Positions 125-62,217 of a DNA stretch of 64,000 bases are shown here, one piece after another; position 1 is the first letter of the stretch; every line of letters begins with the position of its first letter. The stretch lies in the NCBI GenBank assembly GCA_964016885.1, contig OZ024741.1, positions 60,946,001 through 61,010,000 on the forward strand, given 5' to 3'. Source of the stretch: Eledone cirrhosa. Taxonomy: Eukaryota. The notes beneath the pieces were generated by a model. The model was not told the DNA's origin. It made no database searches and saw only the letters and a program-made list of their open reading frames with translations. The position numbers and the translations under genes were made by a program.

Positions 125-385
125 TATATATACATAAAGAAAAAGACAATTTCGCTTTACATGGCTGAATACAATAAATATAATCTGAGTTTTTCGAATA
201 TTAATAATAGCATTCGATTCATTTGCAATTATGCAAACAACCCTCAATTTTATAGCCATGGCCAACATACGAGCAAGAATGAAGTGTTCATTCTACTGAC
301 ATGGCTATAAAATTGAGGCTTGTTTGCATAATTGCAAACGAATCGAATGTTATTATTAATATTCGAAAAACTCAGATTACATTTA
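125..385. repeat. Palindromic (TA)n-flanked element, arms 181-260 / 300-379; same family as 52087-52400
   Basis: taatctgagtttttcgaatatt...tagccatg is the reverse complement of catggcta...aactcagatta; near-identical sequence at 52087-52400 carries an HHR. Confidence 0.85.
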
Positions 386-461
386 TATATATATATATAT
401 ATATATATATATATGTTAGTAAACCAATTACGAGGACGCACGTTTCACCTTGCGGACAACT

Positions 462-826
462 TCTATATATATACTAAAACACACGCGACCCGTTGTGTCA
501 CATTCACTTAAAAATATATTTTAAAATTATGTTCACTTAAAAATAATGTTTAATCAATTAAAATATACACAGACATGTCTCTCTTTCAAACTACTCTCTC
601 ACAACCACTATCTCTTTCTTTCTAACTTTCTCTCTATTTATGAAGATACCCGGAAAAACCCCGTATCTCGGGATCCCGTGCTCCGATTTACGTGAAACTT
701 ATTTTATTCCATTTGTATTCCCATTTCAGAGGCAACTTCCTTTCAAGGTTTTTTCCCATTATGCGCCGTTTTGGCTGTATTAAATTACAGACAAGACGCA
801 ATCACAGAGTTTTAGTAGTATATAGA
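462..826. mobile_element. Putative non-autonomous DNA element (MITE or Helentron/DINE-like)
   Basis: Imperfect terminal inverted repeats tctatatatatactaaaac / gttttagtagtatataga; internal GC-rich hairpin at ~646-680; no ORF. Confidence 0.45.
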
Positions 827-2093
827 TATATTGTTGGTTATATTTTCGCAGTTAGTATATAAATCTCTTAAATTCATGTTACATTTATTATTTATTTCTT
901 CGTATCAAATTTGTTGTCGGATTGTTTACATTGGAACAGTTTACAGCGAAAATATTGACAGCTAAATAAGTAATAGATGTAAAGTTAATTTAACGTTGTG
1001 TGTGTGTGTGTGTGTGTGTGTGTGTGTGTGTGTGTGTGTGTGTGTGTGTGTGTGTGTGTGTGTGTGTGTTGGGGTGTTTGAGTGTTTAGTCTAAAATGAA
1101 TTTTTCCATATATTTCAGATAAAGCCATTTGCCAAGAAAGTAAAAGTCTGATCTTTTACTTTTATACATAATTTTCTGAAGTAACAACGAAACATTAAAA
1201 TATACGACTTCTTTTACATTATATATTGTTTAGATTAAAAAGTATTGTATGTAACAAACATTGTCACAGAAGATAATGGTATGAAACTTGTTTAATTTTA
1301 GATATATCTAAATATAGAAACAATGGAGGGAAATGTAATTGAACCCTCAATCTACACAAAGTAATACAACGTGGCCAATATTGAATGGAAGACGAGAAAC
1401 ATAATTTTGCGTGATACTCTCAGAAGTAATAACACTGTGGTTAATTAGTTATAGATGACTGAGTGCCATATTACATTAAATGGCTATGTGTAATATATAT
1501 ATATATATATATATATATATATATATATATATATATATATATATATATATATATATATAGAGAGAGAGAGAGAGAGAGAGAGAGAGAGAGAGAGAGAGAG
1601 AGATGTATGTATGTATAGAGAGAGAGGGGAAAGGGGGGAGAGTACTATTACATATAGGTGAAAACTGATTATATTAAAAATAAGTAAGCATTGATGAAGC
1701 CAAAAATGAAGAGTGAAATATCATAGCCAGATGAAAATCAATTTTGTATGCATAGAATTAATTATATATATATATATATGTGTGTGTGTGTGTATACAGG
1801 TGTATATATGTGTATGTATATATGTATATGTATATGCATGTGTATATGTATGTGCATGTATATATATATATATATATATATATATATATATATATATATA
1901 TATATATATGTATATATGTATATATATTTGTATATATATATATATATATATATATATATATATATATATATATATATATATATATATATATATATATATA
2001 TATATATATATGTATGTATAGATATATATATATGTATGTATATGTATATAAGTGTGAATATATATATGTATGTATATATGTATAAGTCAATAA

Positions 2094-2503
2094 GTGTAAG
2101 TCAAACATGTTAAAGTTGGCGTCTTTCATTCAAATTCGCTGCTATACATATTCCAGTGACAGCCATTATTGGCTGTGACCTCATCAGGCAGTAAGAATTA
2201 ATGTAGAAAACATAGGAAAACATGATGTTGTAATGGGTTCTACCCTGTTAATTAATCGATATGTCCAGCTCCTGGGTGTGTTGTTAGTCCTGAAAGTTTC
2301 CTTTCAGGACTAACAACACACCCAGGAGCTAGACATATTGATGAATTAACAGGGTAGAACCCATTACAACATCATGTTTTCCTATGTTTTCTTCCTTAAT
2401 TCTTACTGCCTGATGAGGTCACAGCCAATAATGGCTGTCACTGGAATATATATAGCAGCGAATTTGAATGAAAGACGCCAAATTTAACATGTTTGACTTA
2501 CAC
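2094..2503. repeat. ~200-bp-arm palindrome (4-nt loop, 2297-2300) with an HHR-like motif in each arm
   Basis: Arms are near-perfect reverse complements; flanked by TA-rich microsatellite. Confidence 0.9.
2406..2458 (+). ncRNA. Type I hammerhead-like motif (GGAA instead of GAAA); mirror copy 2139-2191 on minus
   Basis: Stem I CUGC/GCAG; CUGAUGA; stem II GGUCACAGCC/GGCUGUCACU; GGAA; minimal stem III AU-AUAU-AU; AUA site. Confidence 0.65.
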
Positions 2504-3502
2504 ATATTATTTTATTTTATTTCGTATATTATATATATATATATATATATCTATATATATATCTATATATATATATATATATATATATATATATATATAT
2601 ATATACATAGATACATAATATGTGCGTGTGCGCCTATACCTACTAAAGTATAGAAGAGAGACTGTAACATCATAGGTGTCTTATGATACCCATTGATTCC
2701 TAAGCCAACGGCTCATCGGTGCTTTGTATGTCAACAATATGATTTGTGTAGGTTTCTATGTGTATCCGTATGTAGAGAAGCCTTTATGCAGTAAACCGAT
2801 GAACAGAATGTATGAACTGGTCGTCTATCGTGTAGGAACAACTAAATATAATTTAGAATAGCTGTACCTATCTACTGTAAAAACGACGATATGATAAGCT
2901 AAACATGTATCTTAACACAGAGTTAAGCTAAGAAGCTTTCATGTTCATATGTATAGCCTGATATTTATCTAATAATATCTTGCTTTAGGTGTCTCACTTT
3001 TGAAGTTTATAACTTGGCATAAAACTAATTTTCAGATAAAAACCAAGTATTGACATTATATTTCTCGAGAGAGAAATATAATGTTATATATGAACATAAC
3101 TGATTTCGCTTAGAAGCAGCTGCAATTCCTGCAAGCAAACTCGCAAAACTTGGGTTTTATTTTAACAATGAATATTTAAAATATAATATTACTCTTATAT
3201 TTATGCATCTTCTGCTTTAAGATAATAGAATTTCTATATAAATTTGCTGATCTTATTAAACAAAGATCTTAGTTTAATATCTATACTGAAACCAAAGACG
3301 TTTTAACAACGATGTTTTTCTTTCTGGTAGCAAATTATATATATCATGTATGATGTAACAAATCAATGAAAGCACTCAACGTTATGCTAGTCATCCATCG
3401 TATATGTGGTATCCAGTGGTTGACGCAGGAACGGAGTAAAGTATTTATAAATATATGAGCATATCTTCCAGTCCGGCCTTCTGTTGTCGCTATATATATA
3501 TA

Positions 3503-59680: not shown

Positions 59681-59754
59681 GCTGTGATATATATTTCAAT
59701 GACGACACTGGCCACACTGTTCTGTGTGCGAGTGTCGTGACATCATCAGACAGC
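59681..59754 (-). ncRNA. Type I hammerhead ribozyme
   Basis: GCUGU/ACAGC; CUGAUGA; long stem II ACGACACU...AGUGUCGU with CACAC/GUGUG; GAAA; U-AUAU-A; AUC site. Confidence 0.9.
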
Positions 59755-60973
59755 TTGCTACATAATAAGGATATGTTTCCGAGGCAATCCAAGTTGAATC
59801 GACATGGGAACGGACGAAGTGTGTGCTTTTGGGTTCTTCATCCGTTCCCCTGTGAGTACCAATTCACCCCCACCGGTCTGCGCAGGCGCATGCCCGAAGG
59901 AAGTTGACCATTAGCTACCGCCGATTTCAACGAAATTCGCTTAGTCAGTTCACCCTCTCAGCCAAACAATGACCCATTTAGGCCTGTACCATAGTTGCTA
60001 CCCGTGCCGTCTGTGGCAGTCAGCCGAAAGCCAGAGGGGATGGGAGCGTATTAGTTTTTACAGGTCACAATACTACCTCTCACCACGCATGGACAGTATG
60101 ATTGACCATCAACTCACAAGACAGAATATACTTAATTCTAGGTATCATGGTTTTACATTGGAAGTTATGAGTGAGAGTTGGAAATAAAAATTAAAATCCT
60201 AAATAAAAAATCAGAAATTATAAATTAAACAATTAAAAAATTAACGATTAGAAATTAAAAAATTTTTCAAGTGAGAATCTGGATTGAGGTGAGTAAAAAA
60301 ACATAGATTGAAGTGAGTAAATAATATGGAGAGAGATGTTTAAGTAAGAAGTTCTGAGAGGGGTTCCAATGTCAAAGTTACACTATCCACATATTGAACG
60401 ATAGTGCCGTACATTAGAACGGAGGGTAAACTACAGTATTCAAGGCAGTAGTCAATCTGGTACACAGTCATAATTTCCATCACATGGAACAAAACCAAAG
60501 GAAAACAGATATAAAGTACACAAAAGAATAGAATCAATAATGAATAAATGCAAAATCACAGAGTACATATATGCAAAATGATCCATATGATTGTCAATTT
60601 GTCCATGTATAGATTGAATTGAGGGGGCTTCTGTTCAAAAGCGATTTGGTGCAGGAAAATATGGGTTTATCTCAGTTTTTGTTTCCGCGTATTTACCCAG
60701 CCGAAAGTTACTATTATGTCCGTCCAGTGTCAGGGGTTTCCATCCCCATAGTAGAGGGAATTTCCATGGGTAGCTCATGGTTGGTTCCTCTCTTCTCCAC
60801 CATGTCGGTTACATCATAGAGCGCTCAACTAATTGGCGCTAAATTCTTAGGGTAAATATTGATGCAATTCAATTCAAGCACTCAACGTACTTTTTCCACA
60901 TAGGAGTGACGGAGTAAATATCGAATAAGTAAAAGCGAATTAGTTTCAGATGTTCAAGTCCTTTAATAATAAT

Positions 60974-61047
60974 GCTGTGATATATATTTCAATGACGACA
61001 CTGGCCACACTGTTCTGTGTGCGAGTGTCGTGACATCATCAGACAGC
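60974..61047 (-). ncRNA. Type I hammerhead ribozyme (identical to 59681-59754)
   Basis: Same sequence and fold. Confidence 0.9.
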
Positions 61048-61637
61048 TTGTTACATAATAAGGTTATGTTTTTGAGGCAATCCAAGTTGAATCGACATGG
61101 GAACGGACGAAGTGTGTGCTTTTGGGTTCTTCATCATTTCCCCTGTGAGTACCAATTCACCCCCACCGGTCTGCGCAGGCGCATGTTCGAAGGAATTTGA
61201 CCATTAGCTACCGCCGATTTCAACGAAATTCGCTTAGTCAGTTCACCCTCTAAGCCAAACAATGACCCATTTAGGCCTGTACCATAGTTTACTGCTACCC
61301 GTCCCGTCTGTGGCAGTCAGCCGAAAGCCAGAGGGGATGGGAGAGTGTTAGTTTTTACAGGTCACAATACTACCTCTCACCAAGCATGGACAGTACGACT
61401 GACCATCAACTCCCAAGAGAAAATATACTTAATTCTAGGTATCATGGTTTTACATTAGAAGTTATGAGTGAGTTGGAAATAAAAATTAAAATCCTAAATC
61501 AAAAATCAGAAATTATAAATTAAAAAATTAACAATTAGAAATTAAAAGATTTTTCAGGTGAGAATCCGGATTGAGGTGAGTAAATTAAACATATAGATTG
61601 AAGTGAGTAAATAATATATATATATATATATATATAG

Positions 61638-62217
61638 TTGAAAAAAATGAAAACGAAATTTCATTTCTCACTCTTAGTATGGCACTTACTTAAATGTAAG
61701 TATGTATGTATACGTACATACATATATGTATACAGACGTACAGTAGCATGCATATATATATATATATATATATATACATATATACACATATGCATACAGG
61801 TACACATACATATATGCACGCATCAGTTTAGCCGACGTTTATTATAACGCAGCTTTGTTCGCTTGTTTGTCAACAAATCGAACAGCCTGAATTTATGCCA
61901 TACGGTGTTAAGGTTAAGTGTTAAGTGTTAAGTACATCGTTCCTGTGTCAGTGTTGAACAAAAAGGTGACGTGGTTGCCTTAACACCGTATGGCATAAAT
62001 TCAGGCTGTTCGATTTGTTGACAAACAAGCGAACAAAGCTGCGTTATAATAAACGTCGGCTAAACTGATGCGTGCATATATGTATGTGTACCTGTATGCA
62101 TATGTGTATATATGTATATATATATATATATATATATATATATATATATATATATATGTGCATGCTACTGTACGTCTGTATACATATATGTATGTACGTA
62201 TACATACATACTTACAT
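61638..62217. repeat. Palindromic copy of the ~420-bp retrozyme-like family (7516-8641)
   Basis: Arms ~61695-61912 / 61978-62217; shared gaaatttcatttctcactcttagta and catcgttcctgtgtcagtgttgaacaaaaagg. Confidence 0.85.

What the first reader, a model, noticed from the sequence alone, without database searches (positions are those of the whole stretch)
181..62217. About 15 short palindromic insertions with one shared architecture (inverted 3' ends pointing outward, one arm lacking a tail)
Seen at 181-379, 2094-2503, 3503-3767, 7186-7490, 9246-9625, 12552-12620, 19813-20073, 25222-25515, 37643-37960, 38016-38147, 40197-40350, 45863-45986, 52087-52367, 54408-54566, 59135-59410 and 61695-62217. 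Two match 3' ends of coding PLEs in this window (9.2k matches 63.6-63.9k; 59.1k matches 58.4-58.65k and 12.7k). In most, one arm continues into a 30-120-nt tail. The shorter arm stops at a family-fixed point (catacttacat at both 8641 and 62217). Established: PLEs can give inverted pLTRs. Inference: fold-back or twin priming is the dominant insertion outcome here, seeding long dsRNA hairpins with HHRs on both strands.
Basis: partly seen in the sequence, partly recalled or inferred. Interest (0 to 1): 0.75.

Follow-up and report, generated by a model that had tools for sequence, protein, structure and literature searches.

The report
Twin-primed Penelope and retrozyme palindromes
These mirror-image inserts are real, very common short copies of Penelope-type jumping genes and of protein-free ribozyme-motif repeats; their shape is already described, but in 12 families one arm almost always ends at a 'short' site and the other at a 'long' site, which likely means both ends of one DNA cut start copying one RNA at two fixed points.

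Summary
All 16 listed palindromes are real (20 local inverted repeats in the window, 0 in 10 shuffles) and belong to 13 repeat families. Six families adjoin Penelope-like (PLE) RT/GIY-YIG coding sequence; four are non-coding tandem units with a type I hammerhead motif (retrozyme-like). The shape, an inverted pLTR with a tail at one end, is a published PLE signature. New here are the counts. In 12 mapped families, 276 of 289 head-to-head inserts with two canonical ends pair one short with one long end (43 of 44 in a systematic sample; independent choice allows at most 50%). The short-end arm usually reaches farther 5' (101 vs 29), and 39 inserts have no arm overlap, which argues against simple fold-back. 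Inner ends pile up at a fixed 5' boundary, a likely transcription start, in eight families but scatter in the tandem ones. Best reading: twin priming on one RNA. Ends do not match the ribozyme cut. Both arms hold a full hammerhead at only 3 of 16 sites. Head-to-head inserts are 34-40% of unselected copies. Transcription and editing are untested. The scan has reported this pattern before, also in this genome.

The parts
140..395 (.). Family F3 (non-coding ~440-nt tandem hammerhead unit): tailed arm on left (-), short arm on right (+)
2089..2514 (.). Family F8 (PLE, GIY-YIG-linked): head-to-head with both arms short (an exception); full hammerhead motif in both arms
3503..3890 (.). Family F9 (GIY-YIG upstream in L411/L405, with internal (TA)n between): short arm left, tailed arm right; right end approximate; not in the 12-family count
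7113..7492 (.). Family F10 (long unique upstream body, coding link not shown): tailed arm left ending in (AC)n, short arm right ending in (TA)n
7517..8641 (.).
9241..9666 (.). Family F2 (PLE, GIY-YIG-linked): short arm left, tailed arm right
10557..10737 (.). Family F6 twin insert with almost no arm overlap: inverted short end plus direct tail
12554..12720 (.). Family F4 (PLE, GIY-YIG-linked): left arm truncated at the predicted GUC cut, tailed arm right; holds only the 3' half of the hammerhead
12722..14656 (-). 5'-truncated coding PLE of family F1 (GIY-YIG piece at 14225-14611) ending at the short site
19809..20134 (.). Family F11 (coding link not shown): short arm left with full hammerhead motif, tailed arm right; centre joined through CTGG microhomology
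25110..25189 (.). Family F6 minimal twin insert, no arm overlap
25222..25642 (.). Family F5 (non-coding ~570-nt tandem unit, U3/A8 hammerhead variant): short arm left, tailed arm right, 99% perfect, no loop; both arms begin downstream of the hammerhead
36912..37998 (.). Older F5-like insert: long arm split by a ~600-nt (TA)n run at its short site; short arm right
38021..38206 (.). Family F4 subfamily: short arm left, tailed arm right
40112..40350 (.). Family F6 (PLE, RT+GIY-YIG-linked in L362/L370/L400): tailed arm left, short arm right; hammerhead motif in both arms
45858..46054 (.). Family F13 (TATAAA about 30 nt upstream of the inner-end pile-up; coding link not shown): short arm left, tailed arm right
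46858..51975 (-). Near-full-length PLE in partial tandem (RT 47761-50160; GIY-YIG 47333-47806). Its pLTR-tail-ORF junction shows both family end sites, each at ATAT
52085..52414 (.). Family F3: short arm left, tailed arm right
54407..54822 (.). Family F12 (non-coding ~500-nt tandem hammerhead unit): truncated inverted left piece, short end right; atypical
54835..58657 (.). 3.8-kb coding PLE (F1-like) with the same build: inverted tail piece on left (54835-54958), RT/EN body ending at the short site on right
59131..59512 (.). Family F1: short arm left, tailed arm right; full hammerhead motif in both arms; inner ends next to TATA/Inr-like motifs
61640..62217 (.). Family F7 subfamily: tailed arm left, short arm right
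62976..63922 (+). 5'-truncated coding PLE of family F2 (GIY-YIG, Pfam PF01541 E=3e-7) ending at the long site

Best explanation
These are head-to-head insertions of Penelope-like element (PLE) 3' ends and of non-coding hammerhead tandem units, with one arm ending at a family-fixed short site and the other at a long site, likely made when the two ends of one cut in a (TA)n tract each prime reverse transcription of one RNA at those two sites. Shown: two fixed outer ends per family, near-strict short+long pairing, outer ends next to (TA)n, variable centres, and a 5' pile-up of inner ends in the eight non-tandem families. Inferred steps: (1) a PLE RT/GIY-YIG dimer binds the RNA and nicks both strands; (2) one DNA end primes at the upstream (short) site, the other at the downstream (long) site; (3) the short-site cDNA runs freely, while the long-site cDNA must displace it and more often stops early; (4) because the pLTR promoter lies only about 45-240 nt upstream of the short site, most cDNAs run off the RNA 5' end, giving 150-500-bp palindromes; (5) the two cDNA ends are joined, in part by microhomology. 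The non-coding hammerhead units likely borrow the same enzyme; with no fixed 5' end (circular or multimeric RNA) their arms would end anywhere and can span more than one unit. The hammerhead cut is likely not used during insertion.
For: Short+long 276, long+long 6, short+short 7 among head-to-head inserts with two canonical ends; bystander copies 117 of 121; systematic sample 43 of 44. The pattern holds in all 12 mapped families, and is 58 of 61 in the four tandem families. Among single-piece short+long inserts the short arm reaches >20 nt farther 5' in 101, the long arm in 29, and 112 are within 20 nt; bystanders 45, 2 and 64; 39 have a tail-only long arm with no overlap. The farthest inner end falls in one 25-nt window in 61-97% of head-to-head inserts for F1, F2, F4, F6, F8, F10, F11 and F13, against 21-36% for F3, F5, F7 and F12; bystanders only, 103 of 138 against 7 of 18, Fisher p=0.004. 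TATA-like motifs lie about 28-30 nt upstream of an Inr-like motif in F1, F4 and F13. 792 of 986 canonical outer ends have (TA)4 within 22 nt, against 8% background. Both arms share 93 rare variants, about 2 expected by chance on my estimate from the unshared rate. In vitro, an anole PLE nicks and extends both strands, starts RT at two internal sites that bound the tail, is predicted to be a dimer, and does not need hammerhead cleavage (PMC11167929). Penelope's promoter lies in the pLTR (PMC2377424, passages).
Against: No RNA, 5'-end or biochemical data here, so the transcription start is inferred from motifs that are short and common; clear TATA boxes are absent in F2, F6 and F10. Long arms do not pile up sharply at the short site: 16 of 264 lie within 10 nt and most run past it, so strand displacement or a second RNA must be common. 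A-to-G editing marks shared by both arms, which would show one RNA molecule, were not found (7 A>G against 17 T>C, p=0.10). Shared variants also fit two RNAs from one locus, or gene conversion. Windows for the inner-end test were set on all data. The bystander result is driven by F4, F13 and F6 (93 of 103); F11 bystanders reach the window in only 4 of 13; the tandem group is small (18). Seed hits of F4, F5 and F11 were biased by the query. 'Multi-unit' counts for F7 may be inflated by alignment breaks. About 55-66% of copies score as single-orientation. No coding link was shown for F10, F11 or F13.
Confidence: 0.68

Rival explanations
1. Asymmetric dimer with two RNAs: each RT subunit carries its own RNA copy, and the geometry of the complex forces one subunit to the short site and the other to the long site.
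For: Explains the short+long pairing, and the many long arms that run past the short site to the 5' boundary without displacement (in 88 of 218 linear-family inserts both arms reach the boundary). A dimer is predicted (PMC11167929). No shared editing marks.
Against: Does not by itself predict that the short arm reaches farther (101 vs 29; bystanders 45 vs 2) or the 39 tail-only long arms. The 93 shared rare variants need both RNAs to come from the same locus.
Confidence: 0.17
2. Fold-back (self-priming) of one cDNA, followed by endonuclease cutting of the element's own pLTR at the short site: the self-priming and 'EN-mediated resolution' ideas in PMC3846280 and PMC8557442.
For: Proposed in print (passages). 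Explains the variants shared by both arms. PAc cuts its own ORF-pLTR junction.
Against: A fold-back copy cannot reach farther 5' than its template or carry sequence absent from it, yet short arms reach farther in 101 inserts and 39 inserts have no overlap. Single-orientation copies also end at the short site (157). In vitro RT starts at both tail boundaries.
Confidence: 0.1
3. Fixed palindromic elements (MITE-like or hairpin retro-elements) that spread as whole palindromes.
For: All 40 top hits for F11 had the same centre.
Against: That query spanned the junction. Unselected F11 copies have other centres, and the tail sits on either arm. Centres vary in every family, and the same ends occur on kb-long coding copies.
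Confidence: 0.03
4. Assembly fold-back artefacts.
For: The window's own centres were not bridged by any contig laid. A few arms are 99-100% identical.
Against: Most arms differ by 1-16%. Family-fixed asymmetric ends cannot come from chimeric reads. Inverted junctions of other F5 and F1 copies are present in Logan contigs of separate runs at depth 11-24.
Confidence: 0.02

Closest known systems
Endonuclease-positive Penelope-like element insertions with inverted 5'-truncated pLTR and one-sided tail (PMC3846280, PMC8557442: passages; PMC11167929: parts 1-2 of 4 of the text)
   Same: C-terminal GIY-YIG + RT elements, pLTR with hammerhead motif, head-to-head inverted copy, tail at one end only, AT-rich target, uncleaved RNA as template.
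   Different: Tails are 40-128 nt rather than 30-40. The commonest product is a pLTR-only palindrome. Short+long pairing is counted and near-strict across 12 families. Inner ends pile up at a 5' boundary. Junctions often share 3 or more nt with (TA)n, whereas PAc started at non-homologous sites in vitro.
Metazoan non-LTR retrozymes (PMC7229834: passages; bioRxiv 10.64898/2026.07.22.740005: parts 1-3 of 5)
   Same: F3, F5, F7 and F12 are non-coding 430-570-nt tandem units with one type I hammerhead motif per unit.
   Different: Here they are dispersed in (TA)n as head-to-head inserts with the PLE two-site footprint. 'Inverted' and 'target site' do not occur in the main text of PMC7229834. The preprint argues PLE origin from homology and co-occurrence and leaves the mobilisation mechanism open. 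Self-cleavage and circles were not tested here.
LINE-1 twin priming (Ostertag and Kazazian; recalled, no call)
   Same: Both target ends prime cDNA on one RNA, so the 3'-most points of both pieces face outward.
   Different: In L1 the second primer anneals at variable internal sites and the pieces barely overlap. Here both sites are fixed and the arms usually overlap, giving a palindrome.
Palindromic Harbinger repeats of Xenopus tropicalis as ADAR substrates (PMC5625713: passages)
   Same: Short self-folding repeats at high copy number that need no second nearby copy to form dsRNA.
   Different: Those are DNA transposons with a palindromic consensus. Here each palindrome is likely built anew at insertion, and editing is untested.

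Membership tests
EN+ Penelope-like elements | RT followed by C-terminal GIY-YIG endonuclease upstream of the pLTR, same strand | tested here: met
   F1, F2, F4, F6 and F8 lie in sense downstream of GIY-YIG/RT matches; F9 too, with internal (TA)n between. Pfam GIY-YIG E=3e-7 at 62977-63339. Not shown for F10, F11 or F13.
EN+ Penelope-like elements | Inverted 5'-truncated pLTR, head-to-head | tested here: met
   353 head-to-head against 1 tail-to-tail among 784 inserts
EN+ Penelope-like elements | [quoted passage not shown] | tested here: met
   Two-peaked 3' ends in 12 of 12 mapped families and in the 46.9-52k family; 276 of 289 short+long
EN+ Penelope-like elements | Type I hammerhead motif in the pLTR | tested here: met
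   Motif with three stems found on the sense strand in 10 of 12 references; 0-1 of 100 shuffles score as well. F4 (U3/A8 variant) and F9 read by eye only; F10 unresolved.
EN+ Penelope-like elements | Partial-tandem pLTR-ORF-pLTR copies | tested here: met
   Window 46858-51975; not sought for each family
EN+ Penelope-like elements | Clade by RT phylogeny (Penelope/Poseidon, Neptune, Nematis, Hydra) | not tested
   No tree built. Atlas look-alikes of the window RT are unnamed eukaryotic RT-like clusters.
EN+ Penelope-like elements | Target-site duplication | not tested
   Most ends lie in (TA)n, where a duplication cannot be read; the few non-microsatellite sites were not examined for one
Non-LTR retrozymes | Non-coding tandem repeat with a type I hammerhead in each unit | tested here: met
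   Tandem copies seen for F5 (L128, L135, L137, L145), F7 (L223, L237, L238), F12 (L281, L283) and F3 (L199); hammerhead motifs; no PLE coding sequence upstream of 98 arms that reach the unit start
Non-LTR retrozymes | Self-cleavage and circular RNA in vivo | not testable with these tools
   No RNA holder listed. Scattered inner ends fit a circular or multimeric template but do not show one.
MITE / fixed foldback DNA element | Invariant terminal inverted repeats around a conserved centre | tested here: not met
   Centres vary and the tail switches arms

The most novel reading that the evidence does not exclude
One PLE integration complex copies a single RNA twice, from two fixed sites and one per DNA end, and does so both for its own capped transcript (run-off at the pLTR start) and for circular retrozyme RNAs (no run-off, rolling into tandems). 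This has sown on the order of 200,000 self-folding palindromes across the genome. If this is a cephalopod, as I recall such genomes to look, they would be a main, so far unassigned source of the exceptional dsRNA load and A-to-I hyper-editing reported for octopus.
Probability: 0.3. Interest if true: 0.8.

Novelty: new variant of a known kind. Interest (0 to 1): 0.5.

Why it matters
How PLEs make their inverted pLTRs and one-sided tails is an open question: PMC8557442 calls for mechanistic work, and PMC11167929 leaves the steps after first-strand priming unvalidated. A near-strict short+long rule, short-arm precedence and a 5' run-off boundary, repeated across 12 families in one genome, give sharp predictions for the existing in vitro system. 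The same footprint on non-coding hammerhead tandems is insertion-level evidence that animal retrozymes are moved by PLE enzymes. Local inverted repeats cover about 3.9% of the sampled genome, and about half show a PLE-type signature, so they may matter for dsRNA load, editing and genome stability.

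Tried and rejected
(1) Short end = hammerhead cut site (my first idea, from site 12552): rejected. The cut lies 19-215 nt upstream of the short site; 5 of 1136 outer ends and 10 of 1242 inner ends fall within 3 nt of it. (2) ADAR marks shared by both arms: not found, 7 A>G against 17 T>C. (3) F11 as a fixed palindrome: a query-selection effect. 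(4) Arm-to-arm against nearest-other-copy divergence is an unfair minimum-over-many comparison; not used. (5) Genome searches with the short F6 and F3 queries returned no candidates; F3 was redone with a longer query and F6 was read from bystander copies. (6) Rfam found no hammerhead among the 150 of 174 matches shown, only AT-hairpin miRNA look-alikes and one tRNA-like match. (7) No RNA holder listed; only assembled contigs could be laid, and they do not bridge the window's centres. (8) Pfam on 59 non-repeat ORFs found no host exon, only a LINE endonuclease, so whether the window lies in a transcribed gene is unknown. (9) Two of six protein probes and one of five were in the wrong frame; the coding-link test was redone correctly. 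(10) Microhomology with (TA)n at start sites: 52% of 125 scoreable ends share 3 or more nt, against 6-23% null, but 259 ends were unscoreable and dropped; suggestive only. (11) Literature searches for PLE with 'twin priming' (2 papers, neither on PLE mechanism by listing), for PLE with cephalopod editing and for PLE palindromes in microsatellites found no paper giving these counts; the library lacks most subscription journals, and Fig. S2 of PMC11167929, not seen, maps genomic ends and may bear on novelty.

Full report
Observation. Self-alignment of the masked window recovers every listed interval as an inverted repeat. Twenty local inverted repeats are called, against none in ten shuffles. 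The matches to coding elements and the shared end motif at 8641 and 62217 are as stated. Thirteen of the 16 sites pair a short arm with a tailed arm; 2094 (two short arms), 12552 and 54408 (truncated left arms) do not. The window lies in a 3.0-Gb assembly. Eighty evenly spaced 10-kb stretches hold 121 local inverted repeats, one per 6.6 kb, covering about 3.9% of bases. Thirty belong to the 12 mapped window families, and 29 of 79 others show the same asymmetric spacing to (TA)n. Twelve are a different class with a (TA)n loop.

What they are. Own-genome searches returned 347-2806 first-look candidates... for most families in the hundreds to thousands (686-2806; 60 for one short F1 query; none for two short queries). 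F1, F2, F4, F6 and F8 lie in sense downstream of GIY-YIG or RT sequence; F9 does too, with (TA)n inside its 3' region. F10, F11 and F13 have long unique upstream bodies, but no coding link in the loci held. F3, F5, F7 and F12 are 430-570-nt non-coding units that occur in tandem. A three-stem type I hammerhead motif is found on the sense strand in 10 of 12 references and beats 99-100 of 100 shuffles. So the 16 sites are PLE pLTR ends and retrozyme-like units, not one element.

What is known. An inverted 5'-truncated pLTR with a tail at one end is the described PLE insertion structure (PMC3846280 and PMC8557442, passages). The first paper favoured self-priming, the second endonuclease resolution. 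Purified anole PLE protein nicks and extends both strands, starts RT at two internal sites that bound the tail, is predicted to be a dimer, and uses uncleaved RNA (PMC11167929, parts 1-2 of 4). Penelope's promoter lies in the pLTR (PMC2377424, passages). Animal retrozymes are hammerhead tandems thought to be PLE-derived, with the mobilisation mechanism open (PMC7229834, passages; bioRxiv 10.64898/2026.07.22.740005, parts 1-3 of 5). No supplements were read.

Test 1, pairing of ends. I mapped 12 family references (F9 left out) onto all 420 loci and the window, merged neighbouring pieces, dropped inserts within 60 nt of a locus edge and removed duplicates: 784 inserts. 353 are head-to-head, 1 tail-to-tail and 430 single-orientation. 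Of the 289 head-to-head inserts with two canonical ends, 276 are short+long, 6 long+long and 7 short+short; the other 64 have at least one non-canonical end. In copies not selected by a query the count is 117 of 121, and in the systematic sample 43 of 44. Independent choice of site at each end can give at most 50%. The rule holds in each family and in the tandem group (58 of 61), and on kb-long coding copies such as 54835-58657 and L362.

Test 2, fold-back against twin priming. A fold-back arm is a copy of the first cDNA and cannot reach beyond it. Among 242 single-piece short+long inserts the short arm reaches more than 20 nt farther 5' in 101, the long arm in 29, and 112 are level; 39 have a long arm made of tail only. 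This excludes simple fold-back for those inserts and fits two primers on one RNA, with the downstream one hindered by the upstream one. Against this: long arms show no sharp stop at the short site (16 of 264 within 10 nt). The arms share 93 rare variants, but with no A>G excess, so a single RNA molecule is not proven and an asymmetric dimer with two RNAs remains possible.

Test 3, inner ends. In the eight non-tandem families the farther inner end falls in one 25-nt window in 61-97% of head-to-head inserts; in the four tandem families in 21-36%. Bystanders alone give 103 of 138 against 7 of 18 (p=0.004), driven by F4, F13 and F6. In F1, F4 and F13 a TATA-like motif lies about 28-30 nt upstream of an Inr-like motif at the window's edge. 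I read this as run-off at the transcript's 5' end, which explains why the products are short: RT starts only a few hundred bases from the RNA start. Tandem units lack such an edge, as a circular or multimeric template would. Both readings are inferences.

Test 4, the ribozyme. Ends avoid the predicted cut: 5 of 1136 outer and 10 of 1242 inner ends. Only 3 of the 16 listed sites have a whole motif in both arms. In a fold-back RNA the arms would pair with each other rather than form hammerheads.

Target. 792 of 986 canonical outer ends lie within 22 nt of (TA)4, against 8% of random positions; F10 long ends mostly run into (AC)n. Both sites of the 46.9-52k family end at ATAT. Short pairing with the target is suggested but weakly tested, since 259 of 384 ends were unscoreable.

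Artefact check. Arms carry mismatches. Contigs from separate public runs contain inverted junctions of other F5 and F1 copies. The window's own centres were not bridged, and no long reads were available.

Frequency and consequence. Head-to-head inserts are 40% (53 of 132) of the systematic sample and 34% (156 of 456) of bystanders. These are lower bounds, because short, distant or interrupted partners score as single. Scaling 53 per 800 kb gives about 200,000 for these families. Octopus is reported to have exceptional dsRNA potential and hyper-editing, with its repeats left unannotated, and lizard Penelope is heavily edited (PMC5625713, passages). That this genome is a cephalopod's is my recollection from its make-up, not a tool result, and no expression data were found.

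Verdict. The feature is real and its architecture is a known PLE signature. The multi-family counts, the inner-end contrast and the shared footprint on retrozyme-like units were not found in print in the searches made. Earlier notes of this scan report the same pattern in other genomes and in this one; they are not independent support. Two of their specific claims, ends at the ribozyme cut and shared A-to-G marks, did not hold in this data.

Noticed in passing
window 14694-14821 and 20347-20424: Perfect or near-perfect 24-38-nt inverted flanks around a (TA)n loop, with no match to the mapped families; 12 similar cases in the 800-kb sample. A separate class, perhaps template switching at (TA)n hairpins.
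   Followed up: partly
L094, L096-L098, L102, L109, L110, L112, L118: A tRNA-like SINE sits at or next to the F8 short-end site in about 9 of 30 F8 loci, suggesting a shared preferred target; the same SINE is at window 19236-19423, 23165-23597, 35899-36085 and 41416-41603.
   Followed up: no
families F5 and F4 (L135, L368); F6 and F12: Hammerhead cores use U3/A8 in place of C3/G8 (F5 by script, F4 by eye) or CAGAAGA (F6, F12). In F4 the inner-end pile-up lies inside a long loop II, so run-off arms carry only half the ribozyme.
   Followed up: partly
window 46858-51975 (-): Near-full-length PLE in partial tandem, with an Asn/Thr/His-rich low-complexity stretch at the start of the 799-aa open frame, reminiscent of the N-rich inserts in PMC3846280.
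   Followed up: partly
window 7113 and F10 loci L152-L174: F10 long ends run into (AC)n (14 of 24) while short ends run into (TA)n (26 of 31): the microsatellite may be partly templated or extended by the element rather than pre-existing.
   Followed up: no
window 29144-34702: Two tandem LINE copies (81% alike) with endonuclease and RT frames; RT Pfam E=1.6e-22.
   Followed up: no
window 25670-26640: 5'-truncated LINE with C2H2 zinc fingers, flanked by a direct repeat that looks like a target duplication.
   Followed up: no
window 59632-60323 and 60925-61613: Direct ~690-nt repeat pair, 94% alike, of unknown family.
   Followed up: no
window 10047-10515 with 41060-41691; 39478-39817 with 40739-41027: Other dispersed repeats with short terminal inverted repeats, DNA-transposon-like; not part of the PLE class.
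   Followed up: no
window 58722-58831, 62766-62831, 63960-64000, 9100-9150: A further repeat family ending in (TA)n, not mapped; possibly another pLTR family.
   Followed up: no
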